This document shows, one piece after another, positions 15,592 to 48,084 of a DNA stretch of 64,000 nucleotides; position 1 is the first letter of the stretch; each line of letters starts with the position of its first letter. Made by a program: the position numbers and the translations under genes. This stretch comes from Escherichia phage vB_EcoS_ESCO30, in sequence record NC_106513.1, one strand, 5' to 3'. The notes under the pieces were generated by a model that searched no databases, was not told the origin of the DNA, and saw only the letters and a program-made list of their open reading frames with translations.

Positions 15592-15760
15592 TTTTGTCCC
15601 TTTCTAAGAACGTATCATACTCAACCGTATCAACATATATGACACCATAGTCATCAGATTTATAGTCCATTTCCCATAGCTCACATCGATAACACCAACT
15701 ACCATCCGCCCATACAAATATATCATCGGGATGTGTATATACAGATTTAACTATGGACAT
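15578..15760 (-). CDS. hypothetical protein
   Basis: 60-aa ORF overlapping neighbours by a few codons. Confidence 0.35.
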   Translation of the reverse strand: MSIVKSVYTHPDDIFVWADGSWCYRCELWEMDYKSDDYGVIYVDTVEYDTFLERDKNGNK

Positions 15761-16583
15761 ATCTGTTTCCCCTCATCTCCGGTACATAAGGTCTACCCTC
15801 TAGATGGGCTTCTACACGAGCAATAAAATCAGGGTCACTGAAAGCATCTACCGCACCTTTACTCCAGTAAGGGATACCGCGTTCTTCCAACTGGTACATC
15901 TCACTACGAGTCATACCTTGATAGCCTGGTTCCGCCGCTAGGGCACTATCGTAGTAGTTAACTACCATAAGTTTCGCAGCAGTACGATTAAGAGTAGGAA
16001 ATAGTTCCCAGTAGAAGTTAATTACTTGGTTAGAGCAACCAACTACAACGATCATATCTTGACTGGTAATACCATCAAAAATATTGTACATTTCTGCGTA
16101 CGCTGGAGCATGCTCACCAAAGAAGATTACATTAGGTTTAACCCATTTATAATCATCTGGGTCAATAGAGTTATACCCAACATCAATAACTCGTTTATTA
16201 CTACTATTGTAGCTGTCAGCTACAACAACCTCTTTTAAATATCCGTGAATGTGCAGAATGTCACTATGTGGAACACCAGCACGCTCAATAAGATCATCAA
16301 CGTTAGTAGTCAAATTTACTACTTGACCCGGATATTTCTTATACCATTCACCAATACGCAGGTGTGCAAGATTGGGTTCAACAGTTTCTAACTCTTCACG
16401 ACGTTTGTTGTAAAACGTGTGGGTTTTATGATAAAAATTACCACGAAAGGCATGAATATTACATATCTCTTCTAAGTCATAATCATCCCACAATGCTTTA
16501 CCACTAGCAGTATCAGTACGGAAGGCTCGTACACCACTTTCAACACTCAAACCTGCACCGCTAATAATAATTAATCTACGCAT
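15747..16583 (-). CDS. SIR2-family (sirtuin-like) NAD-binding protein
   Basis: GAGLSVESGVRAFR, TTNVDDL, LHIHG, NVIFFGE and VVVGCS motifs in sirtuin order; no zinc-ribbon Cys pairs. Confidence 0.7.
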   Translation of the reverse strand: MRRLIIISGAGLSVESGVRAFRTDTASGKALWDDYDLEEICNIHAFRGNFYHKTHTFYNKRREELETVEPNLAHLRIGEWYKKYPGQVVNLTTNVDDLIERAGVPHSDILHIHGYLKEVVVADSYNSSNKRVIDVGYNSIDPDDYKWVKPNVIFFGEHAPAYAEMYNIFDGITSQDMIVVVGCSNQVINFYWELFPTLNRTAAKLMVVNYYDSALAAEPGYQGMTRSEMYQLEERGIPYWSKGAVDAFSDPDFIARVEAHLEGRPYVPEMRGNRYVHS

Positions 16584-16797: not shown

Positions 16798-16969
16798 AAA
16801 GTTTCTCCTCTAGTTCCATAATACGACTTTCATAAGAAGCACGCAACTTTTCAATTGCTAGCGCACGCACCATAACCTCATTAGAGTTAATAGCTAATTG
16901 AGCTAGCTCTTCAGTTTCCATACGTCCGTTATAGATTAAGCGATATTTAAGGTGTTTTACGTTTTTCAT
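16766..16969 (-). CDS. hypothetical protein
   Basis: 67-aa ORF in operon. Confidence 0.4.
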   Translation of the reverse strand: MKNVKHLKYRLIYNGRMETEELAQLAINSNEVMVRALAIEKLRASYESRIMELEEKLYGILEADATR

Positions 16970-17178
16970 TCTATGTCCTCAAACAATTCAATTTCTGCAT
17001 TTGCAATTAAAAGAGCTGGTTCCGATAAGCATATGCCTGATCTAGGGTCAATCTTCTCCTTATCCATCCAAGTATTTATTAAGCAAAATTTAGTAACATC
17101 TTCTCTTAGAATAGATCCATATGCTCCTGAGTCCATAACAAAATAGATACGATCTTTATCTACCTTATGAATCCTCAT
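16966..17178 (-). CDS. hypothetical protein
   Basis: 70-aa ORF, first gene after promoter. Confidence 0.4.
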   Translation of the reverse strand: MRIHKVDKDRIYFVMDSGAYGSILREDVTKFCLINTWMDKEKIDPRSGICLSEPALLIANAEIELFEDIE

Positions 17179-17206
17179 ATCTTTCTCCTCTCAAATTTAT
17201 AAATCT

Positions 17207-17235
17207 ATTATACATATATTTTTAGCTGAAAGCAA
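17207..17235 (-). promoter_or_regulatory. sigma70-type promoter (minus strand) for SIR2/HAD operon
   Basis: minus-strand -35 TTGCTT (17230-17235), 17 bp spacer, -10 TATAAT (17207-17212). Confidence 0.65.
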
Positions 17236-17277
17236 ATAAAATAAAAGCCAGGTCGACTAGCAACCTGGCTGATTATC

Positions 17278-19104
17278 TTACTTAAGATTTAAGTGTTTTA
17301 CTCTACCAAGCACTTCTTTTTGTTTCCCAGAATTGAAAGGCCTACTGCCCGGGGATCCCAGGTACCCGCAAACCCTACGTGTAACCTCTATTTCTTCAGA
17401 CCCACAACTTGGACATACAAACCCACGCTCAGAGGCAATAGATTCACCCATATATCCGCAGTTGAAACACTCGTCAATCGGTATATTAACACCGATATAA
17501 TGGCTACACTCTAGTCCCTTATCTACTACGTATTCAAGAGCTTTATGGAATTTTTTCATTTGTGGTAATTCCACAAACGATATATTACCCCCATTAGCTA
17601 TTTTGGTAAAATGAGCTTCGTACTCAAATTTAGTATCTGGGGCTACCTTCTCTCTTACGTCCAAATGGTGACTATTAGTAAGATAGCCTTTGTCTGTTAA
17701 CCAAGAATACTCTGGGAATCTACGTTCTAGTAATTTATTAAAACGATTACATAGAGACTCACTAGGAGTAGCGTATAAGCTAAATCCAAGATTAGTCTCA
17801 TTAGCTTTAACTTCGCAACGATTTTTTAAGTGAGTGAGAACTTCCTCTGTAAATTCAATACAGTCCCTATGAGTCTGTGGTAAACTAAACATTATTTGGC
17901 ACATCTCATAGACTCCAATATACCCAAGAGATACAGAAGATCTACCCTCAAAAATAGGCCATACATATTCTTCCCCCTCTAAACGTACACCAAAACCACC
18001 GTGCATATAAAGAATAGGGGCTTGTTTAGCCTTCACTTTCTTAAGTCTATCCAAGAAAAAATCATGAGCTTCAAAAGCCTCATCCACATATTTGTCCAGA
18101 ATATCCCAGAAATCTTCAAAAACCCCATCTGCCTCAGCAGCAACCATAGGTAGATTAATAGACACTACACCTAAATTATTGCGCCCTGCAATTTCTCCGG
18201 AGGGGATAGCAGATAAAAAGCTACGACAACCCATAGGGGCTTTAAAATCACCAGTAACAGCTACAACTTTCTCATAGCTTAAATAGTCTGGGTACATACG
18301 GGTAGCAGAACACTCAAGTGCTAGCTGTTTTATATCGTAGTTAGGATCGCCTGGATTTTTATTTAACCCTTCTTTAACTGAGAATACTAGTTTAGGGAAG
18401 ATAGGGGTTGACTCAGCAGCACCTAAACCTTTAATACGATTTTGGAGGATGGCTTTCTGAATCATCCTTTCCTCCCACTCCTGACCTAATCCAAAGCCAA
18501 GCGTAACAAAAGGGGTCTGCCCATTAGAGTTAAATAATGAATTAGTTTCATACTCTAGAGCTTGGAATGCATCATAACACTCTTTTTCAGTAAGCTCAGT
18601 GGCATACACAGCAGCTTTTCTTTCATCCTTGAGCCAACGTAGCCCACGACCCAGATGTTTATTGTAAGACTTTCTGACATACGGGGCTAGAACCTCGTCG
18701 ATACGATCAATAGAGGTGCCACCATACTGAGCACCAGATACTTGGGCAATAATCTGAGCAGTGATTGCACATGCAGTAGTTATGGATTTAGGAGTTTCAA
18801 TATTTGCATTACCAATTTTAGTACCATTCTTCAGCATGCCACCAAGGTCTACTAAGCAACAGTTAGTGTACCCCTGCGCCCTGTAATCCATATCATGAAT
18901 GTGTATCTTACCTAGATTATGGGCGTCTAATAGATGTTTGGGTAATTCCTGCGATACTAAATACTTGTTGATTTCTCCGGCCAATAAGTCTCTTTGAGTA
19001 TGGAACATCTCACTAGGCTTATTAGCATTATTATGTTGTAAGTCTTTATCCGCAGTTAGAGTGAGCAGACCTTTGCAATTCTCAATTAATTCATTCTCTG
19101 TCAT
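17278..19104 (-). CDS. nrdD: anaerobic ribonucleoside-triphosphate reductase (class III)
   Basis: C-terminal glycyl-radical motif RRVCGYLG and CxxC...CPSC zinc ribbon; 608 aa. Confidence 0.85.
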   Translation of the reverse strand: MTENELIENCKGLLTLTADKDLQHNNANKPSEMFHTQRDLLAGEINKYLVSQELPKHLLDAHNLGKIHIHDMDYRAQGYTNCCLVDLGGMLKNGTKIGNANIETPKSITTACAITAQIIAQVSGAQYGGTSIDRIDEVLAPYVRKSYNKHLGRGLRWLKDERKAAVYATELTEKECYDAFQALEYETNSLFNSNGQTPFVTLGFGLGQEWEERMIQKAILQNRIKGLGAAESTPIFPKLVFSVKEGLNKNPGDPNYDIKQLALECSATRMYPDYLSYEKVVAVTGDFKAPMGCRSFLSAIPSGEIAGRNNLGVVSINLPMVAAEADGVFEDFWDILDKYVDEAFEAHDFFLDRLKKVKAKQAPILYMHGGFGVRLEGEEYVWPIFEGRSSVSLGYIGVYEMCQIMFSLPQTHRDCIEFTEEVLTHLKNRCEVKANETNLGFSLYATPSESLCNRFNKLLERRFPEYSWLTDKGYLTNSHHLDVREKVAPDTKFEYEAHFTKIANGGNISFVELPQMKKFHKALEYVVDKGLECSHYIGVNIPIDECFNCGYMGESIASERGFVCPSCGSEEIEVTRRVCGYLGSPGSRPFNSGKQKEVLGRVKHLNLK

Positions 19105-19954
19105 TGATTATTTCCTCGATAAACTTTATAGCTACTTTTGGTTCAATATTGAAGAATTCCGTAGCGCCGTCAAAATCTTTGTACTGGCAATTCTGCTCTT
19201 TAAAGTAGTTATGGGCTAATTTTTCTATTCGAACTGCACTACTATATTCTCCAATTTCAAATACTTTAATTATTTCCAAATCAGTAAGGTGGCTACTAGA
19301 TCTAATTTGTAGAAGCCTACGCTCTGGGTTGTTAGATCTACCTATTTTAACCCCATGTGAGGGGCTATGCATAATATATATCCTAGTACTTTCTAAATCT
19401 CTATAATTACAGTAAGGACAACCGTTCCCTCTTAATACAGATCCTGGAGTAGCTTCCCACCTATGCCCTGCACCACAAAGAAAGGCGGTCTTAGTATTCG
19501 CGTTACTATACTCACCCACTATTCTGATATTTCTGGCAGCAAGACGATCATTTATAGTATTAACACTAAGTTTTTGTTTATTAGTAGCACAAGATGGGCA
19601 GCCACTACCTCTATTAATTATACTATTAAGTGTAGTAGCCCACTCATGACCACAAACACACCTAAATTTAGTATTTATATCGGCACTATTTTTATAGCCG
19701 TTCAACAATGTAATACCTCTGTCCTGTAATACAGTATTAATTCTATCAATATCTAGTTTACGGCTACTAATAGAGCAAGTAGGACAATTGGTCTTTCCAT
19801 TCCTAATAGCGTCAAATTTAGCTGTCCATTGGTGACCGTATTCACACTGATACGTATGCCTATACCTAGAATTTTGATATGGCTTATCCACCATAGTAAA
19901 ACCACGCTCGGCTAGGCATTTATCTACTTCTTCTTGAGTTAATTTTTTCGGCAT
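19091..19954 (-). CDS. T5orf172/GIY-YIG-like putative endonuclease with three zinc-ribbon repeats
   Basis: Three C..GH.W...G.GCPxC repeats, then IYIMHSP..GVKIGRS..P..RL motif; ATG at 19952-19954 with GGAGAAG SD; track start is GTG at 19996. Confidence 0.6.
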   Translation of the reverse strand: MPKKLTQEEVDKCLAERGFTMVDKPYQNSRYRHTYQCEYGHQWTAKFDAIRNGKTNCPTCSISSRKLDIDRINTVLQDRGITLLNGYKNSADINTKFRCVCGHEWATTLNSIINRGSGCPSCATNKQKLSVNTINDRLAARNIRIVGEYSNANTKTAFLCGAGHRWEATPGSVLRGNGCPYCNYRDLESTRIYIMHSPSHGVKIGRSNNPERRLLQIRSSSHLTDLEIIKVFEIGEYSSAVRIEKLAHNYFKEQNCQYKDFDGATEFFNIEPKVAIKFIEEIINDRE

Positions 19955-20007
19955 TCCACTTCTCCACAGAATTTTTACGGCATTCCACTTCTCCACAGAA
20001 TTTTTAC
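19950..20007. repeat. perfect 2 x 29 bp tandem direct repeat (GGCATTCCACTTCTCCACAGAATTTTTAC)
   Basis: Identical copies at 19950-19978 and 19979-20007; each carries SD + ATG of the downstream minus-strand gene. Confidence 0.9.
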
Positions 20008-32564: not shown

Positions 32565-33361
32565 ATATTCATAAATTAGAGAACAGCGAGCCGATTACGC
32601 TGAGTGCAGAATCCCAACCGGAGCGCATTGAATAGAGTCGGTGGGTTAGTTGGAAAACTAGTACACAGGGGGCGGCAATCCCGGTTAGTGGCTAGAACGT
32701 GTAAAATGAGGCGTCTGAAACCTCTCCCCTAAACTCTTCTCTAATTTACTGATAGTGGGGTGTGGAAATCACTTATGTAGTAACACTGCCGATCTAGTAT
32801 AAACGGTATTATCAAGCCGTAACTGGTGGAAGATGTAGGTTCGAATCCTACGGTCGGTAAGAACTGGATAACTGGTGCTTTTAACGTAAAAGCTTCCGAG
32901 GTTAGTTGCGCACTGCCTAAACCACGCGGTAGTTGGTTCCAGACTAACCAACCAGTCTGCTGAATAGTTTTATTACGATTTAACTATGTCCAGGCATAAA
33001 GAAGAACTTTAGAAGGTATTCTAGGTAGTGAAGTTTTTCCTCCATATCGGAGTAGTTTTTCAAGCTATCCACAAAGTGGGAAATGATGGCATGAGAGATG
33101 CCACTAATGGTGCACAATAGCACAGGTAATTCGCGATAACCCCTGTTGAGTAGCAGCAAAAAGGTGGGGAGTCATGACCCTAACCTAACCGAGTCCTCAG
33201 TATACCGCAGGACATAACCACTAAGTCACCTTGACTTAAACTGGAAAATAATAGACGTTACTGTATTTTGTCTTGAAATACTTAATGAGTGAGACTTATG
33301 ACTCTCCCGGTATCGTCTGTATTTTTAAGAGTTTTTACGAGAGTTCTTAAAAATACTTAAA

Positions 33362-34742: not shown

Positions 34743-35159
34743 TTAGGAGTTATTATCACCATTTTGAGCTTTTGCAACTTGGCTTTGGCAGAAGCTATTA
34801 AACTTACCCATAAGTGATACAAGCTGTTTCCCATCCTCTGTCTTTGCGAAGTCTTCGAAAAGGGCTAGTACTGCCTGTCCTTCCGCAGAAACCTGCGGTT
34901 GTTGGGTTTGTTGCTGAACTTGCTGCTGAGCCACCTGTTGCTGCATTTGTTGAGGCATTTGCGACTGCCCGCTCATTTGCTGCATCATTTGCATAGGACT
35001 CACACTTCCAGGGTTTTGCTGGAGTTGTTGCTGCATCTGTTGCGCTTCTGCTAAACGCTGTTGCAACTGTTGTAGGTAAGGGTTATCCAGTCCCGGAACG
35101 GGCTGCTGGGAGCCCATTTGTTGATTAAATCCGTTGTTTACAAAACCATATTTACTCAT
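34743..35159 (-). CDS. glutamine-rich low-complexity protein
   Basis: 138-aa ORF, about 30% Gln with QQMQQQ repeats; convergent to neighbours. Confidence 0.5.
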   Translation of the reverse strand: MSKYGFVNNGFNQQMGSQQPVPGLDNPYLQQLQQRLAEAQQMQQQLQQNPGSVSPMQMMQQMSGQSQMPQQMQQQVAQQQVQQQTQQPQVSAEGQAVLALFEDFAKTEDGKQLVSLMGKFNSFCQSQVAKAQNGDNNS

Positions 35160-35180
35160 AATGGGCTCCTCCCCTTAATT

Positions 35181-36161
35181 TTAAGCCGGCAGTTTAGCCT
35201 GCAGACCAGCCAGAGTCTGAGTGATAGCACCAAGACTTACAGCGATTTGGTTGATTACCTGACCGTTTGCACCACTACCTGCAGCGATTGCTTCGCGCAG
35301 ACGGCATTCATTCAGTTCGTCCTGGATACGTGCAGTAGTTACACCAGCGATTGCAGTCTGAAGCTCACAGCAACATTCAGCAAGCTGACGTTCGATAGCG
35401 TTCTGGTTAGCACACATCTGAGCCTGAACAGCGGCAAACTGGTTGTTGGTCTGAATAGACTGCTGGAAAGCAATCTGAGCAGAGTCAAACTTATCTTGAG
35501 CACGTGCTATCTGGTTAGCAGCGAAAGACTGATCCATCTGACGAGAAAGATCGAACTGACCCTGAATAACGTTACGAGTTTCAGCACAGATCTGATTTGA
35601 CAGATTAGCACCTGTACCATAGATAGTAGTCAGAACTTGCTGAGTGCTAGCAGCTTGAGCAGCTCCCACACCGTTTACTGCGCTTAGAACAGCCCCAGTG
35701 CCCTGGTTAGCTTCTGTACGAGTAGTATTGATTGCAGCTAGAATACTTGCAGTATCTTGGTTAGAAAGGATCGCGTCCACAGCAGTTCCTTCAGCGGCAA
35801 CACCAACACCGCGACCAAAACCACCAAAACCACCAAATCCGCCTGTTAATAGAGCACCGATTAGGATAGCTCCGAATAGACCCATACCTTCTCCACCGAA
35901 AGCACTTGCGTTAGCTGGGAATGCACCCATGCCAGGGAAGCCGTTAGTAAATACGTTTACTGGTTCTTGCATTTTATGTTTTCCATATTTATGACAATGT
36001 TCATCATCGTCATCTTCTTCATCTTTATCATCGTGTTCACGATGTTCTTCTTCGTAGGCTTTGACTTTCTCCCACTTTTTCTTATCTGATTCCTCGTGAC
36101 GATGCAGTTCTGCTGCTACGCTAGCGACGGTTTCAGGACTCTTAGCTACTTCTTCTGTCAT
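35181..36161 (-). CDS. Gly/Gln/Ala-rich protein with acidic N-terminus and hydrophobic GGFGGFGGFG segment
   Basis: ATG at 36159-36161 with AGGAGGTG SD; acidic DEEDDDDEH stretch, hydrophobic MGLFGAILIGALLTGGFGGFGGFG, long Q/A/N-rich tail with CCC motif. Confidence 0.5.
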   Translation of the reverse strand: MTEEVAKSPETVASVAAELHRHEESDKKKWEKVKAYEEEHREHDDKDEEDDDDEHCHKYGKHKMQEPVNVFTNGFPGMGAFPANASAFGGEGMGLFGAILIGALLTGGFGGFGGFGRGVGVAAEGTAVDAILSNQDTASILAAINTTRTEANQGTGAVLSAVNGVGAAQAASTQQVLTTIYGTGANLSNQICAETRNVIQGQFDLSRQMDQSFAANQIARAQDKFDSAQIAFQQSIQTNNQFAAVQAQMCANQNAIERQLAECCCELQTAIAGVTTARIQDELNECRLREAIAAGSGANGQVINQIAVSLGAITQTLAGLQAKLPA

Positions 36162-43985: not shown

Positions 43986-44207
43986 ATGCACGTTTTTGAG
44001 TTTCGTAATAAAAGTACCAATAAACGAGTTATTGTTATTGGGGAAACATATCGAGCATATGAACAAACTGACGGCTCTGTTATCTTGAATGATGAGAAAG
44101 GGGGTTTTAGCTTTTATCCAGAAGAAACGTATGAGGGGTTTCGTACTAAGTTTCTTTTACCAGACTGGCTAGCAGTAGCCGAGCAACGAGAATCCGAAGA
44201 TGGCTGA
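43986..44207 (+). CDS. hypothetical protein
   Basis: 73-aa ORF after tRNA-Gly. Confidence 0.45.
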   Translation: MHVFEFRNKSTNKRVIVIGETYRAYEQTDGSVILNDEKGGFSFYPEETYEGFRTKFLLPDWLAVAEQRESEDG

Positions 44208-44364
44208 TAACCTAAAATTAAGAGTTGACAAACAAAAGAAATACGTTGAGGTTGAATTAGGCGAAGAACGCTTAAAGCTAACTTTCGAGTTTCTTCAGCA
44301 GTTGGCTATGACAGTTATGACTGATAAGTCTCCTGTTATTGAAAAAGAAATCCCGTTGAAATAA
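44200..44364 (+). CDS. hypothetical small protein
   Basis: 54-aa ORF below track cut-off; ATGGCTGA overlap with upstream stop. Confidence 0.3.
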   Translation: MADNLKLRVDKQKKYVEVELGEERLKLTFEFLQQLAMTVMTDKSPVIEKEIPLK

Positions 44365-44374
44365 CGGGATTATC

Positions 44375-44449
44375 GCTCCTAAAGCATTGCTGGCGATGCA
44401 GCTGCCTTGTAAGCATCTGAACCGGGTTCGATTCCTGGTGGGAGCACCA
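44375..44449 (+). tRNA. tRNA-Thr (anticodon TGT)
   Basis: Acceptor GCTCCTA/TGGGAGC, D-stem GCAT/ATGC, anticodon loop CTTGTAA, T-arm CCGGG-TTCGATT-CCTGG, CCA encoded. Confidence 0.75.
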
Positions 44450-44464
44450 AATTTAAAAATTCAT

Positions 44465-44493
44465 TTGCCTTCTCTCTTATTTCTTGTTATAAT
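44465..44493 (+). promoter_or_regulatory. early promoter
   Basis: -35 TTGCCT 44465-44470, 17 bp, -10 TATAAT 44488-44493. Confidence 0.65.
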
Positions 44494-44523
44494 ATTTATA
44501 TAAGTTAATGAGAGGGAAACCAA

Positions 44524-44817
44524 ATGAAACGTTATCTTTCTGTTGTGTTCCAAACTGGTGGTCAACGCTATACCTATGAATTTCCTAGCTCTTGGAAGAT
44601 CAAAGAAGGTGATCAAGTAGTAGTGTTAACACCGCGTGAGGGTTTCAAGGTAGTAACGGTTAAGCAAGTATTTCCAAAAGAGCATGAACCAGCTAAAGGC
44701 ATTCGCTATAAGATGATTCATGGTGTAGTTCGTCAAGTACCACGAGTGGAGGTCGAAATCAAAGTAGATAAAGATGGTAAACTTAAATATACCTCTTGCT
44801 TAGACGAGTTGCTATAA
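44524..44817 (+). CDS. hypothetical protein
   Basis: 97-aa ORF with GAGAGGGAAA SD. Confidence 0.5.
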   Translation: MKRYLSVVFQTGGQRYTYEFPSSWKIKEGDQVVVLTPREGFKVVTVKQVFPKEHEPAKGIRYKMIHGVVRQVPRVEVEIKVDKDGKLKYTSCLDELL

Positions 44818-45023
44818 TGAGGATTACTTTTACAGAAAAGATCATGAGTAATGGTGTTATGATCATTACCGCATGGGATGGCAATCAGTGGTGTAGTGTT
44901 TCAGGTATTAAGCCTGAAAAACAAACACTAGAAAATATCTCAAAGATTAAGCGAAGAATGGCAGAACGTGCACGACTTCCAGGTGCACCTAGAAATGGCA
45001 AACGTTCTGCTGTAAAATGTTAA
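44817..45023 (+). CDS. hypothetical protein
   Basis: ATG 44817 overlapping upstream stop (TAATG); track start 44796. Confidence 0.4.
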   Translation: MRITFTEKIMSNGVMIITAWDGNQWCSVSGIKPEKQTLENISKIKRRMAERARLPGAPRNGKRSAVKC

Positions 45024-45024
45024 T

Positions 45025-45101
45025 GCTTCGGTAGCTTAGCGATCTAAAGCACTCGGCTGATAACCGAGAGATCGGGGGTTTAAATCCCTCCCGGAGTACC
45101 A
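45025..45101 (+). tRNA. tRNA-Ile (anticodon GAT)
   Basis: Acceptor GCTTCGG/CCGGAGT, D-stem GCTT/AAGC, anticodon stem CTCGG/CCGAG with loop CTGATAA, T-arm GGGGG-TTTAAAT-CCCTC, CCA encoded. Confidence 0.7.
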
Positions 45102-45197
45102 AATTTAGGAATTAAGACTATGCGTCCAGGAAAGTTTAAAAAAGCTAATTGGACTAAAGAGTATAAAGAATACTTACTTAGCCTAATAAAACATAAT

Positions 45198-45270
45198 AGT
45201 TAGTTGGCAGAGTGGTTATGCACCTCCTTCATACGGAGCGACTACAGTGGTTCAAATCCACTACTAACTA
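45198..45270 (+). tRNA. tRNA with anticodon CAT (Met or Ile-lysidine type), no encoded CCA
   Basis: Acceptor AGTTAGT/ACTAACT perfect, D-stem GCA/TGC, anticodon loop TTCATAC, T-arm AGTGG-TTCAAAT-CCACT. Confidence 0.6.
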
Positions 45271-45310
45271 TCATTAAAAGAGCTAGAGATAGCTAACTTT
45301 AGGAGCAGCT

Positions 45311-45505
45311 ATGTTAACAATTAAAATAATGTCAGCCAAGAATGGGGAACAGATTCATACAGGCAAAAGTGTAAGCTTTAATCCTAGAAATAAAAGATTG
45401 GCTATAGTTGGAGTAGACCAAGCCATCTTTTTAAAAGAAGATGAAGTAGCATATGTCATGAACCAAACTGGTAAGACAGTTTCCGTATACTATGGAAAAG
45501 TATAA
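45311..45505 (+). CDS. hypothetical protein
   Basis: 64-aa ORF with AGGAG SD. Confidence 0.45.
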   Translation: MLTIKIMSAKNGEQIHTGKSVSFNPRNKRLAIVGVDQAIFLKEDEVAYVMNQTGKTVSVYYGKV

Positions 45506-45547
45506 AGAATAAATAGCTGAGCCAAATTCTAACATCGGGGAGATCTA

Positions 45548-45916
45548 ATGAAAGCATATCAAAATCTTAAATCTGGCGTAATTAACCTTGTTCATGAAAA
45601 TCAGATTATTCAGCTATACTCCGACAATGGTGAACTTAAACAGAAAGTTCTAGTTGAAGATCTAGAAGGTATCACACCACAATTCGATCCAGAAGCCTTC
45701 CGTGAAGTCAAAGTGGAAGTCGCCCCTCAAATCGAAGGTGGTCAGCACCTAAATGTCAATGTATTAAGCCGTGATCAGCTTTTGGATGCACAGAAACATC
45801 CTGAAAAATACCCTCAATTAACTATCCGTGTTTCAGGGTACGCTGTACGTTTTAATGCACTGACTCGTGAACAGCAGAACGACGTTATTAGTCGTACATT
45901 TACTCAGGCGATGTAA
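45548..45916 (+). CDS. grcA: autonomous glycyl-radical cofactor (GrcA/YfiD-like)
   Basis: C-terminal [11 protein letters not shown]...[21 protein letters not shown]...[12 protein letters not shown] matches the glycyl-radical domain pattern. Confidence 0.8.
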
Positions 45917-45997
45917 TGGGGTTTGGATACGATTTCTCCGAACTACGTGAGGTAGTCGAGCAAATTCCATTTATCTCCCAAGTTTTAGGAGAAATGT

Positions 45998-46303
45998 GTG
46001 GATCGAGCATTAAGACGCCATCATCGGCAACGTGTGAAGAACAACCGCAAGAAGTATTGGACAGTCTTCCCACATGAAGAAAGCCCTAAGCGGTTAGGTA
46101 TTATCACTACTACTCCTTGCATTTGTTCTTGTTGGATGTGTGGGAACCCTCGCAAATACTATAAAAATAGTAAAGCAGGTATGAAAACCTCGGAGATCAG
46201 GAAAATGGAAGCGATGATTGCGGACATCACCTATACTGGTGGTATTTCAAATGATGAATTTGATGGCTTCGTAGCGTTCGAAGATGAACGTCCCGATCTG
46301 TAA
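45998..46303 (+). CDS. hypothetical protein
   Basis: 101-aa ORF, basic N-terminus. Confidence 0.4.
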   Translation: MDRALRRHHRQRVKNNRKKYWTVFPHEESPKRLGIITTTPCICSCWMCGNPRKYYKNSKAGMKTSEIRKMEAMIADITYTGGISNDEFDGFVAFEDERPDL

Positions 46304-46312
46304 TTAATAACA

Positions 46313-46349
46313 AACCCCAGCTATTGAATAAGTAGTCTGGGGTTTTTCT
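46313..46349 (+). terminator. rho-independent terminator
   Basis: AACCCCAG...CTGGGGTT stem followed by TTTTTCT. Confidence 0.7.
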
Positions 46350-46424
46350 GTATACAGGAAAATAGTTTATGTATAATAAAATTCATCCACATTAGGTTAA
46401 TTTAAAAGACTTAATGGAGGTAAT

Positions 46425-46772
46425 ATGAGCCGTACTTATCGTAGACAATCTGGTGATCAGTGGTGGAAGTCTAAAGAACAATTCTCTCAAGAATATTCTT
46501 TCCTTAAAGAAAATGGCTACTGGATTCGTGTTATTTATGCTAAATCCTGGGATGATGTAGAACAGGAAATGAAGGAAGCAACCATTCGTAATGAGAAAAA
46601 GGATGGTTATAACTGGAATTCTATTAGTAAGAATGTTAAGTGGCATTCTAATAAAATGGTTCGTCAAGGGAATCGTCAAGAACTCCACCGCGTGATGAAA
46701 GATCCAGAAAATGATGATTATAATCGCGATCATGACATGCGTAAGCGTGGGTTATGGTGGCGCTATGACTAA
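46425..46772 (+). CDS. hypothetical protein
   Basis: 115-aa Trp-rich ORF with GGAGG SD. Confidence 0.5.
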   Translation: MSRTYRRQSGDQWWKSKEQFSQEYSFLKENGYWIRVIYAKSWDDVEQEMKEATIRNEKKDGYNWNSISKNVKWHSNKMVRQGNRQELHRVMKDPENDDYNRDHDMRKRGLWWRYD

Positions 46773-46789
46773 ATTCTGAAATAATTCAT

Positions 46790-46818
46790 TTGCTAAACCT
46801 CTCTTTTCTTGCTATAAT
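46790..46818 (+). promoter_or_regulatory. strong early promoter
   Basis: -35 TTGCTA 46790-46795, 17 bp, -10 TATAAT 46813-46818. Confidence 0.7.
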
Positions 46819-46848
46819 ATGTTTATAAATTGATGAGAGAGGTTTGAA

Positions 46849-47130
46849 ATGAAAACTCGTCTAGACTGTGCTGTTCATGTTCTTGAACATGATGTTGCGG
46901 GAACCTGTATGTCTTACCACGAAGCAGGTCGTTTAATTAAAGAACGTGTGGCAGATGTGTGCGGATTGAAGATTACTGCTGAGGAAGCTGATGATCTTTT
47001 AGGTCAAGCACTGGAGAAAACCGAAATGTTTCTCTGCGATTCTTGTTCTTGGTGGTGTGAAGCTCACGAACGTTCTTTCAACGATTATGATGTATGTCGT
47101 GATTGTAGTGGGGAGGATGAAGATGAATAA
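46849..47130 (+). CDS. hypothetical Cys-rich protein with acidic tail
   Basis: 93 aa, ends ...CRDCSGEDEDE. Confidence 0.5.
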   Translation: MKTRLDCAVHVLEHDVAGTCMSYHEAGRLIKERVADVCGLKITAEEADDLLGQALEKTEMFLCDSCSWWCEAHERSFNDYDVCRDCSGEDEDE

Positions 47131-47422
47131 GTTTATTATTGCACTGATGATCTCCGCAGTTAGTTTCGGTTCTCTGGCGTCTACCAAAGTTTCTATGAAA
47201 AATGGTAATGTTAAAGTCCAACAGAACGGCATTATTACAGAGTATGGTAAAGTTCGTGATGTTAAGGAACGTAATGGTAAAGTAGAAATATATACTAATA
47301 AAAACTTCTCTACTCCGGCTGTTACTGTTAGCAAACGTGGTGAGATAACTACTCAACGTACTAATAGCTCTAGTTCTTTTACTTGTCGTTATGATTGCGA
47401 CTTCGAAGGTGAAGATGAATAA
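47123..47422 (+). CDS. hypothetical secreted protein
   Basis: ATG 47123; signal peptide MNKFIIALMISAVSFGSLAS; ends ...CDFEGEDE (track start 47057). Confidence 0.5.
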   Translation: MNKFIIALMISAVSFGSLASTKVSMKNGNVKVQQNGIITEYGKVRDVKERNGKVEIYTNKNFSTPAVTVSKRGEITTQRTNSSSSFTCRYDCDFEGEDE

Positions 47423-47810
47423 TTTAGATCCTAGAATTAAATTTGCAATTACAGAAATCCAAGATCAAATTGATGAGGACTTCACTGTTTGGTCAAGGTC
47501 CGGTAATGGGGAATACTGCCAGCTTTATAGCATGAAAATGGGCATTTCAATCGAGCTTAACATTAACTCTGAAGGTAGAGTAGAAGCCCAACCACTATTC
47601 AGTGTTCCAGGCTTCTCTGGATTTGTTGCAGGTATGAAATTGTGTCTACCAAATAACCATCTTCATCGAGTTATTTGTCAGCTAGAGACTATTAAACATT
47701 TCTTGCCAGAAGGTAACATTAATGACTACTACCATGAAGTTGTAGCAGCTCATATGATGAAAGAACGCAAACGTCGGAGAGAAGAACGTGAAAAAGCTAA
47801 ACATCAATAG
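47415..47810 (+). CDS. hypothetical protein
   Basis: ATG 47415 in a GAAGATGAATAA junction like the previous gene (track start 47391). Confidence 0.45.
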   Translation: MNNLDPRIKFAITEIQDQIDEDFTVWSRSGNGEYCQLYSMKMGISIELNINSEGRVEAQPLFSVPGFSGFVAGMKLCLPNNHLHRVICQLETIKHFLPEGNINDYYHEVVAAHMMKERKRRREEREKAKHQ

Positions 47811-48084
47811 CACAGTGCAGATTCCAGCAACTAAGGACATCTTAACATTCCTGCGTAGTGAGAATACACAATTTTGGCATGACTATATTCAGGAAAATAA
47901 AAATAATCCAGATATAGTGGCTTTTGCCAAAACCCGTATTGGGGAATACAAAGATCCAGAAATTAAAGATGGCATGATTACTATGCAGTTATGGATAGCC
48001 ATGAAAACATTTGGACCTACTATGAGTTTAGGATTTGCCCCTCTGTTTACTAATATTCTAATTAATGAAAAGGATCTGAAATGA
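47788..48084 (+). CDS. hypothetical protein
   Basis: 98-aa ORF, GTG start. Confidence 0.4.
   Translation: MKKLNINSTVQIPATKDILTFLRSENTQFWHDYIQENKNNPDIVAFAKTRIGEYKDPEIKDGMITMQLWIAMKTFGPTMSLGFAPLFTNILINEKDLK

What the first reader, a model, noticed from the sequence alone, without database searches (positions are those of the whole stretch)
45548..45916. Phage GrcA-like glycyl-radical spare part and NrdD, but no NrdG activase
The window encodes class III RNR NrdD (17278-19104) and a small protein whose C-terminus matches the GrcA/YfiD glycyl-radical domain. No radical-SAM CxxxCxxC activase ORF is visible anywhere in the 64 kb, so the phage would depend on host activating enzymes. GrcA-type proteins normally repair pyruvate formate-lyase, which suggests the phage manipulates host anaerobic metabolism as well as dNTP supply.
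Basis: partly seen in the sequence, partly recalled or inferred. Interest (0 to 1): 0.5.

Follow-up and report, generated by a model that had tools for sequence, protein, structure and literature searches.

The report
Phage GrcA spare part, activase-less NrdD
A T5-like phage carries a small "spare part" copy of the radical-bearing tail of the host enzyme pyruvate formate-lyase plus an anaerobic ribonucleotide reductase, but no activating enzyme for either, so it must borrow the host's; each of these features was already described, so the finding is real but ordinary.

Summary
ORF 45548-45916 (+) encodes a 122-aa protein. Its C-terminal 62 residues are 79% identical to E. coli PflB 698-759 and 74% identical to GrcA, and they include RVSGYAV with the radical glycine (G97). 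ORF 17278-19104 (-) is an intact class III RNR (NrdD) with its radical glycine at G580. The window is from a T5-like phage (Demerecviridae, Markadamsvirinae). No NrdG, PflA or other radical-SAM activase is found in the window. None is found in two complete relatives either (HildyBeyeler, EPS7), while a T4-like control scores E=4e-74. Collection-wide counts indicate that nearly all T5-likes lack NrdG.

None of this is new. T4 Y06I (the product of the gene annotated vs.6) is a biochemically validated phage GrcA. The T5-like gene is already annotated in GenBank. Phages with nrdD but no nrdG, with the T5 group among those surveyed, were reported in 2009 and 2013.

Three modest additions come from this work:
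- Both NrdD alleles found in T5-likes keep a host-like glycyl loop (25-26 of 32 residues match E. coli), against 12-18 in three phages that carry their own NrdG. Synonymous sites are saturated.
- An unrelated Aeromonas phage places grcA 10 nt after nrdD and also lacks nrdG.
- PFL makes formate, which is the NrdD reductant, so the two genes plausibly form one anaerobic dNTP module.

The parts
45548..45916 (+). grcA-like gene encoding a 122-aa autonomous glycyl-radical 'spare part' protein of the phage Y06I/vs.6 type (phrog_1209)
   Evidence: ORF. Pfam Gly_radical E=3.7e-18. PDB GrcA 6OWR E=1.4e-30 and PflB E=5e-27. phrog_1209 full length, E=8e-48. dN/dS against HildyBeyeler is 0.11. 100% identical copies exist in Salmonella phages Th1, HMD-7 and STP-SP2.
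45537..45542 (+). Shine-Dalgarno GGGGAG, 5 nt upstream of the ATG
   Evidence: Read directly from the sequence. No convincing sigma-70-like promoter lies immediately upstream, so the gene is probably co-transcribed with the tRNA and small-ORF cluster on the + strand.
45548..45727 (+). N-terminal half (residues 1-60), divergent and faster-evolving; it corresponds to the disordered region of YfiD (residues 1-60) that binds cleaved PFL
   Evidence: Similarity is weak: 28% to the T4-type vs.6 N-terminus (E=0.001) and only a 10-residue match to the GrcA N-terminus. All 7 amino-acid differences from HildyBeyeler fall in this half; dN/dS is 0.19. The role of YfiD 1-60 is described in PMC8683613.
45728..45913 (+). 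C-terminal glycyl-radical domain (residues 61-122), equivalent to PflB 698-759 and YfiD 66-127
   Evidence: 79% identical to PflB and 74% to GrcA. Zero nonsynonymous against 8 synonymous differences from HildyBeyeler.
45827..45847 (+). RVSGYAV motif (residues 94-100); the radical glycine G97 is codon 45836-45838
   Evidence: The motif is identical to the PFL-AE recognition motif in PflB and GrcA.
17278..19104 (-). nrdD, class III (anaerobic) ribonucleotide reductase, 608 aa, without an ATP-cone
   Evidence: Pfam NRDD E=1.2e-157. NF006732 793.5 bits against a cut-off of 657, aligned to profile positions 103-707. Catalytic and zinc cysteines are conserved and the finger loop is PMGCRSFL. dN/dS is 0.022.
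17275..17388 (-). NrdD C-terminal glycyl-radical loop VTRRVCGYLGSPGSRPFNSGKQKEVLGRVKHL; the radical glycine G580 is codon 17365-17367. Approximate bounds of the last ~36 codons plus stop
   Evidence: 26 of 32 residues match E. coli NrdD but only 7 of 32 third-codon positions match.

Best explanation
The window is from a T5-like lytic phage that carries two glycyl-radical proteins and no radical-SAM activase.

(1) The 122-aa protein is a phage GrcA/YfiD-type spare part. After oxygen cleaves host pyruvate formate-lyase (PflB) at Gly734, the C-terminal domain of the phage protein takes the place of the lost PflB radical domain. Host PflA (PFL-AE) installs a radical on its G97, and PFL activity returns. 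The phage degrades host DNA and shuts off host gene expression, so host grcA and pflB cannot be re-expressed. This is a plausible reason for the phage to carry its own copy.

(2) The phage NrdD makes dNTPs anaerobically and is activated by host NrdG.

(3) The two are probably coupled, because PFL is the cell's source of formate and formate is the reductant of E. coli- and T4-type NrdD.

Shown here: gene identities, intact motifs, purifying selection, and absence of an activase in the window and in complete relatives. Shown in the literature for homologues: T4 Y06I is activated by E. coli PFL-AE and restores cleaved PFL. Inferred: the same activity for the T5-type protein, host NrdG acting on phage NrdD, the formate coupling, and the host-shutoff rationale.
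For: Identity of the proteins.

Similarity to PflB: the C-terminal 62 residues are as similar to PflB (79%) as the validated GrcA is (77%).

Purifying selection: dN/dS is 0.11 for grcA-like, with 0 nonsynonymous against 8 synonymous changes in the radical domain, and 0.022 for nrdD.

Spread: the gene is present in about 428 T5-like phage records at 90% identity or more, and in T4-likes as vs.6.

Published function: T4 Y06I and YfiD are activated by PFL-AE and rescue cleaved PFL (PMC8683613). GrcA function in vivo, with the radical on G102, is described in PMC12338860.

No activase: plus the record counts.

Host supplies the activases: E. coli K-12 carries nrdG and pflA.

Host-like glycyl loop: the two T5-like NrdD alleles are only 60% identical to each other, yet their glycyl loops match E. 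coli NrdD at 26/32 and 25/32 residues. NrdG-encoding phages match at 18/32 (RB27), 18/32 (phAPEC8) and 12/31 (Mordin). RB27 is nevertheless closer to E. coli over the whole protein, at 59% against 53%. Only 7 of 32 third-codon positions match, so the similarity is maintained at the protein level and is not recent recombination.

Independent lineage: Aeromonas phage BUCT695 has grcA 10 nt downstream of nrdD and no nrdG in its 86-kb genome.

Formate as the class III reductant: RNRdb Table 1 (PMC2795772) and PMC4493059.
Against: - No experiment exists for any T5-type GrcA or NrdD.
- The N-terminal half, which YfiD needs to bind cleaved PFL, is highly divergent. The protein scores 121 bits on TIGR04365 against a cut-off of 170. 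The T4-type vs.6 also falls short, at 155.7 bits.
- The glycyl-loop comparison rests on two related NrdG-less alleles and three NrdG-bearing lineages, without phylogenetic correction.
- GrcA is not tied to NrdG loss: T4-likes carry nrdD, nrdG and vs.6 together.
- About 46 kb of this particular genome lies outside the window, so its lack of an activase is inferred from relatives.
- The formate coupling was not found stated in the searched literature and is untested.
Confidence: 0.65

Rival explanations
1. The GrcA-like protein is a decoy or inhibitor rather than a repair part. It would soak up PflA activity or occupy PflB, shutting down host fermentation or redirecting pyruvate and SAM.
For: The N-terminal half differs strongly from YfiD's. 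In YfiD that region governs binding to cleaved PFL (PMC8683613). Sequence alone cannot separate a productive binder from a non-productive one.
Against: The radical glycine and the whole radical domain are strictly conserved, with 0 nonsynonymous changes against HildyBeyeler. The domain is as PflB-like as functional GrcA. The T4 homologue restores PFL activity in vitro. Shutting off PFL would starve the phage's own formate-dependent NrdD.
Confidence: 0.1
2. The GrcA-like protein is a spare glycyl-radical domain for the phage's own NrdD, which oxygen also cleaves at its radical glycine. It would not act on host PFL.
For: Both genes are in one genome. In Aeromonas phage BUCT695 the two genes are adjacent. 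PMC8683613 speculates that spare parts for other glycyl-radical enzymes may exist.
Against: The domain follows the PFL sequence ([16 protein letters not shown], 79% identical to PflB) and not the NrdD sequence (RRVCGYLGSP). It lacks the zinc-ribbon that precedes the NrdD loop.
Confidence: 0.03
3. The phage does supply an activase. Either an nrdG lies in the ~46 kb of this genome outside the window, or a non-homologous protein does the job.
For: Only 64 kb of about 110 kb is available. Vibrio members of the same family (GRLPWR, Demerecviridae) have nrdG directly next to the gene at the nrdD position.
Against: Complete HildyBeyeler and EPS7 genomes have no NrdG hit (best E=0.24-0.26) and no CxxxCxxC motif in any plausible ORF; HildyBeyeler also has no PflA hit. 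Record counts imply that essentially all T5-likes lack it. Published surveys found phage genomes with nrdD but no nrdG.
Confidence: 0.05
4. One or both genes are non-functional relics of host gene capture.
For: The genes have not been studied in T5-likes, and standard aerobic laboratory growth should not require either of them.
Against: Reading frames are intact in hundreds of genomes. dN/dS is 0.11 and 0.022. All catalytic residues are present.
Confidence: 0.02

Closest known systems
Bacteriophage T4 Y06I (gene annotated vs.6 in T4-like records), autonomous glycyl radical cofactor (Wagner et al. 2001, as cited in PMC8683613)
   Same: A phage-encoded protein of about 120 aa in the same PHROG (phrog_1209). 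It aligns over the full length at 52% identity, shares the MKAY N-terminus, and has the same RVSGYAVRF radical domain.
   Different: The C-terminal 59 residues of the T4-type protein are identical to E. coli GrcA, and the 3' half of its gene is 97.8% identical to grcA at the nucleotide level. That points to recent exchange with the host. The T5-type is older and diverged (73-75% nucleotide identity) and is slightly closer to PflB than to GrcA. T4 also encodes its own NrdG. Note that the Y06I = vs.6 equivalence is from my own knowledge, not a tool result.
E. coli GrcA / YfiD (PDB 6OWR; TIGR04365)
   Same: A small standalone protein. Residues 51-122 of the window protein are 74% identical to GrcA 54-127 and include the radical glycine.
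   Different: The N-terminal ~50 residues are barely alignable. The score on the equivalog model is 121 bits against a cut-off of 170, while E. coli GrcA scores 234.
T4 NrdD/NrdG class III ribonucleotide reductase system
   Same: The NrdD is about 605-608 aa and lacks an ATP-cone. It is 50% identical, has the radical glycine at residue 580, the same finger loop PMGCRSFL and the same zinc cysteines.
   Different: No NrdG partner. The glycyl loop resembles the host's (81%) whereas the T4-type loop does not (56%).
Aeromonas phage BUCT695 nrdD-grcA pair (NC_070977, Grimontviridae)
   Same: The same gene set: nrdD and grcA with no nrdG in the whole genome.
   Different: There the genes are adjacent, with a 10-nt gap, and NrdD is 697 aa and extends further at the N-terminus. 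In the window they lie 26 kb apart on opposite strands.
Phages with nrdD and nrdAB but no nrdG (Dwivedi et al. 2013, PMC3653736; the paper's 'Enterobacteria phage cluster 4' is EPS7, SPC35 and T5)
   Same: [quoted passage not shown]
   Different: The window carries the minority NrdD allele, only about 60% identical to the EPS7/AKFV33 allele. The paper says many phages have only nrdD alongside nrdAB but does not explicitly name cluster 4 as lacking nrdG.

Membership tests
GrcA/YfiD autonomous glycyl radical cofactor | Small standalone protein (about 120-130 aa), not a fragment of a full-length glycyl-radical enzyme gene | tested here: met
   122-aa ORF with its own ATG, Shine-Dalgarno sequence and stop. 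Conserved as such in more than 400 T5-like genomes.
GrcA/YfiD autonomous glycyl radical cofactor | C-terminal glycyl-radical domain with the PFL-type motif RVSGYAV and the radical glycine | tested here: met
   RVSGYAV at residues 94-100, radical glycine G97. Pfam PF01228 66.4 bits against a cut-off of 22.2.
GrcA/YfiD autonomous glycyl radical cofactor | The radical domain duplicates the C-terminus of PflB (residues about 693-759) | tested here: met
   79% identity to PflB 699-760 (numbered with Met1). GrcA itself is 77% identical over that region.
GrcA/YfiD autonomous glycyl radical cofactor | Score above the curated cut-off of the equivalog model TIGR04365 (170 bits) | tested here: not met
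   121 bits, aligned only over residues 50-122. The T4-type vs.6, whose T4 orthologue Y06I is biochemically validated, also falls short at 155.7 bits. This is a naming threshold trained on bacterial sequences, not a functional criterion.
GrcA/YfiD autonomous glycyl radical cofactor | N-terminal ~60-residue region homologous to YfiD 1-60, which binds cleaved PFL | tested here: inconclusive
   Only weak, transitive similarity. Window N-terminus to vs.6 N-terminus: 28%, E=0.001. vs.6 N-terminus to GrcA N-terminus: 34%, E=9e-5. Window N-terminus to GrcA N-terminus: a 10-residue match.
GrcA/YfiD autonomous glycyl radical cofactor | Activated by PFL-AE (PflA) and restores activity to oxygen-cleaved PflB | not testable with these tools
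   Shown for YfiD and T4 Y06I only (PMC8683613).
Phage Y06I/vs.6-type GrcA (phrog_1209) | Full-length match to the phage family profile | tested here: met
   E=8e-48, residues 1-122 against profile positions 1-121 of 121. 52% identity over the full length to RB14 vs.6.
Class III ribonucleotide reductase NrdD (E. coli/T4 type, formate-dependent) | NrdD fold match above curated cut-offs, with the thiyl cysteine, second active-site cysteine, radical glycine and C-terminal zinc cysteines | tested here: met
   NF006732 793.5 bits against 657, and TIGR02487 534 bits against 326. Equivalents of C175, C384, G681, C644, C647, C662 and C665 are all conserved.
Class III ribonucleotide reductase NrdD (E. 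coli/T4 type, formate-dependent) | Use of formate as reductant | not testable with these tools
   Inferred from closest similarity to the E. coli and T4 enzymes and the identical finger loop PMGCRSFL. Those enzymes use formate (PMC4493059).
NrdG / PflA radical-SAM activases | An ORF with a CxxxCxxC cluster motif and profile similarity to NrdG or PflA | tested here: not met
   None in the window, HildyBeyeler or EPS7: best E=0.24-0.26, against 4e-74 for the control.

The most novel reading that the evidence does not exclude
T5-like phages, and independently Aeromonas phage BUCT695, run an 'activase-free' glycyl-radical module. A phage NrdD has its radical loop held in a host-like state so that host NrdG can activate it. 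It is paired with a phage GrcA that host PflA activates, and that GrcA keeps host PFL producing the formate NrdD consumes. If this is right, GrcA in phages is an accessory of anaerobic dNTP synthesis rather than of energy metabolism. It would also mean that how closely a phage NrdD loop mimics the host loop predicts whether the phage carries its own activase.
Probability: 0.4. Interest if true: 0.4.

Novelty: already known. Interest (0 to 1): 0.2.

Why it matters
It matters little as a discovery. The gene is already annotated in GenBank phage records as 'autonomous glycyl radical cofactor' or 'pyruvate formate-lyase'. The protein type was characterised for T4 in 2001. Phages with nrdD but no nrdG have been catalogued since 2009-2013.

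The residual value is as a clean test case for phage dependence on host radical-SAM activases. It also suggests a testable link from GrcA through PFL and formate to NrdD, which would explain why large lytic enterobacterial phages that shut off host expression carry a PFL spare part. That question bears on phage performance in the anaerobic gut.

One practical point: PHROGs v4 still labels this family (phrog_1209) 'unknown function', which could be corrected.

Tried and rejected
- Radical-SAM candidate next to grcA. ORF 45998-46303 contains CICSCWMC, which fits CxxxCxxC. It is only 101 aa, has no Pfam or NCBIfam hit, belongs to phrog_4499 (unknown function), and scores nothing with the NrdG HMM or PflA phmmer. 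Rejected as an activase.\n- Frame 35076-35597 with CTTTCSDC. No NCBIfam hit and only noise with the NrdG HMM. Rejected.\n- A remnant of nrdG downstream of nrdD (16966-17278). Nothing was found even at E up to 100.\n- A shared grcA cassette between T5-likes and T4-likes. Neighbours of the window gene show no similarity to vs.3-vs.8. Rejected.\n- Recent recombination with host nrdD as the cause of the host-like NrdD loop. Only 57 of 96 nucleotides and 7 of 32 third-codon positions match. Rejected.\n- Literature searches for T5 together with nrdD and nrdG, and for a phage PFL-formate-NrdD link, returned nothing specific.\n- A search for published cross-activation between T4 and E. coli NrdG/NrdD. 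The papers returned were not read for this point, so nothing is claimed.\n- Not run, because they could not change the verdict: the large protein-database searches, structure prediction (the domain is 79% identical to a solved structure) and metagenome scans.

Full report
**What the window is.** Megablast of 44000-48000 and 8000-30000 finds 450-560 phage records. The best hits are T5-like siphoviruses of Salmonella and Escherichia (S130, AKFV33, HildyBeyeler, SP3) at 92-96% identity. HildyBeyeler and EPS7 are classified Demerecviridae, Markadamsvirinae. The window holds replication genes, nrdD, phoH, nrdAB, a run of 22 tRNA genes at 32.8-45.3 kb, and then the gene in question. No record matches at 99% or more, so this exact genome is not in the collection.

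**Checking the observation.**
- ORF 45548-45916 (+) encodes 122 aa. A Shine-Dalgarno GGGGAG lies 5 nt upstream of the ATG.
- Residues 62-103 match Pfam Gly_radical at E=3.7e-18.
- Against solved structures the best hits are E. coli GrcA (6OWR, E=1.4e-30) and PflB (E=5e-27).
- The protein matches phage family phrog_1209 end to end at E=8e-48.
- RVSGYAV sits at residues 94-100, with the radical glycine at G97.
- ORF 17278-19104 (-) is a 608-aa NrdD. It matches Pfam NRDD at E=1e-157 and scores 793 bits on the E. coli-type NCBIfam model against a cut-off of 657. The match starts at profile position 103, so there is no ATP-cone, as in T4.
- The thiyl cysteine, second active-site cysteine, four zinc cysteines and radical glycine (G580) are all present.

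**Is an activase really absent?**
- A six-frame scan finds CxxxCxxC in only two frames of 100 aa or more. Neither has a family hit among radical-SAM enzymes.
- I built an NrdG HMM from seven sequences: E. coli, and phages of the T4-like, FelixO1-like, Vibrio Demerecviridae, Enterococcus, Clostridium and Lactococcus groups.
- With filters off, the best score is E=0.24 in the window plus the complete HildyBeyeler genome and E=0.26 in complete EPS7. The T4-like control scores 4e-74.
- phmmer with E. coli PflA and NrdG against the window and HildyBeyeler is equally empty.
- Collection-wide, tblastn finds NrdD in 2921 phage records and NrdG, even at E up to 10, in 2321. The per-genus deficits are Salmonella 272, Escherichia 122 and Klebsiella 81. 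These match the numbers of T5-like records: 276, 131 and 83. Essentially all T5-likes therefore lack NrdG.
- Vibrio phage GRLPWR, in the same family but a different subfamily, has NrdG immediately after the gene at the nrdD position. This is consistent with, but does not prove, loss of NrdG in the T5 branch.

**What is already known.**
- T4 Y06I and E. coli YfiD were shown to be activated by PFL-AE and to rebuild oxygen-cleaved PFL (Wagner et al. 2001, as summarised in PMC8683613).
- YfiD residues 1-60 are disordered and help bind cleaved PFL. Residues 61-127 copy PFL 693-759. GrcA also works in vivo (PMC12338860).
- tblastn finds the window protein in 1584 phage records. About 428 are T5-likes at 90% identity or more, some 100% identical and annotated 'pyruvate formate-lyase' or 'autonomous glycyl radical cofactor'. 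T4-likes match at about 52% as vs.6.
- RNRdb counted 30 phage NrdD against 21 phage NrdG in 2009.
- Dwivedi et al. [quoted passage not shown] The AKFV33 genome paper lists nrdD and no nrdG.
- The finding is therefore correct but not new.

**Anatomy of the GrcA-like protein.**
- The C-terminal 62 residues are 79% identical to PflB and 74% to GrcA. GrcA itself is 77% identical to PflB.
- The N-terminal 60 residues are only weakly similar to T4-type vs.6 (28%) and barely to GrcA. The protein consequently scores 121 bits on TIGR04365 against a cut-off of 170. The T4-type protein also fails, at 155.7 bits.
- Against HildyBeyeler the gene has dN/dS 0.11. All seven replacements are in the N-terminal half and none is in the radical domain, which has 8 synonymous changes.
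- T5-like, T4-like and Aeromonas phage versions all begin with MKAY, unlike bacterial GrcA. This hints at a shared phage lineage for the gene.
- The 3' half of T4-type vs.6 is 97.8% identical to E. coli grcA at the nucleotide level, whereas the T5-type is 73-75% identical.

**Evidence bearing on host activation of NrdD.**
- The window's NrdD and the more common T5-like allele (EPS7/AKFV33 type) are only 60% identical to each other.
- Both keep the 32-residue glycyl loop at 26 and 25 matches to E. coli NrdD.
- Three phage lineages with their own NrdG match at 18 (RB27), 18 (phAPEC8) and 12 of 31 (Mordin). RB27 is nevertheless closer to E. coli over the whole protein.
- In the window only 57 of 96 nucleotides and 7 of 32 third-codon positions of that loop match E. 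coli. The resemblance is therefore maintained by selection on the protein and is not recent gene conversion.
- This fits a loop that must remain a substrate for host NrdG. The sample is small and is not corrected for phylogeny.
- E. coli K-12 encodes both nrdG and pflA.

**A link between the two genes.**
- Class III RNRs of the E. coli/T4 type use formate as reductant. The window enzyme has the same finger loop, PMGCRSFL.
- PFL is the fermentative source of formate. A PFL spare part would therefore protect the reductant supply of the phage's own NrdD after oxygen exposure.
- Aeromonas phage BUCT695 (Grimontviridae) supports a functional link. Its grcA starts 10 nt after nrdD, and its complete 86-kb genome also lacks NrdG.
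- Vibrio phage KIT04 (Demerecviridae) has grcA in its tRNA cluster, as T5-likes do.
- T4-likes carry nrdD, nrdG and vs.6 together, so GrcA is not a substitute for NrdG.
- I found no paper in the searchable library that states the formate coupling for phages. It remains my inference.

**Verdict.** The feature is already known and annotated. Interest is low (0.2). A moderately interesting untested idea remains: an activase-free, formate-coupled NrdD-GrcA module that depends on mimicry of the host radical loop.

Noticed in passing
window 19091-19996 (-): A 301-aa ORF with DUF4379 zinc-finger repeats and a T5orf172/MUG113 (GIY-YIG-like) domain, matching phrog_681 'endonuclease'. It overlaps the nrdD start by 14 nt. 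No gene is annotated at this site in HildyBeyeler or EPS7, but the closest NrdD match (PQ002169) has an 'endonuclease' annotated under the match. It is probably a free-standing homing endonuclease.
   Followed up: partly
window 17278-19104 (-) compared with L015 7198-9072: Two very different nrdD alleles circulate among otherwise ~90% identical T5-like phages. The window/HildyBeyeler allele is found at 95% identity or more in only 49 records. Some 483 records match at 60-80%, and EPS7 is 60% identical at the amino-acid level. This suggests allele replacement, possibly linked to the neighbouring endonuclease.
   Followed up: partly
L013 2501-2863 (phage RB14 vs.6) compared with L012 3067-3450 (E. 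coli grcA): The 3' 185 nt of T4-type vs.6 are 97.8% identical to E. coli grcA, and the encoded 59 residues are identical, while the 5' half is unrelated at the DNA level. This indicates recent phage-host recombination or gene conversion.
   Followed up: partly
L021 34470-36947 (Aeromonas phage BUCT695): nrdD is followed 10 nt later by grcA, and no nrdG is found anywhere in the 86-kb genome. This is an independent lineage with the same activase-less pair, here arranged like an operon.
   Followed up: yes
window 45998-46303 (+) and 45916-46077 (+): Two small conserved ORFs lie directly downstream of grcA (phrog_4499 and phrog_31464, both of unknown function). The first carries a CxCxCxxCGNPRK cysteine motif that superficially fits CxxxCxxC. 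HildyBeyeler annotates a shorter version of it.
   Followed up: partly
window 15747-16583 (-): A Sir2-family protein (PF02146, E=1.7e-24) lies three small ORFs downstream of nrdD on the same strand. It is annotated 'Sir2-like protein' in relatives.
   Followed up: no
window 32787-32860 (+): ARAGORN calls a 74-nt 'tRNA-Ser' with anticodon ACT at the head of the 22-gene tRNA cluster. That is short for a serine tRNA. In HildyBeyeler the first annotated tRNA of the cluster is tRNA-Arg, with none before it. It may be a pseudo-tRNA or a miscall.
   Followed up: no
phrog_1209 (database annotation): PHROGs v4 labels the phage GrcA family 'unknown function' even though a GrcA-type protein of phage T4 (Y06I) was characterised biochemically in 2001. 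GenBank product names for the same gene range from 'ribonucleotide reductase subunit' to 'acetyltransferase-related protein'.
   Followed up: no
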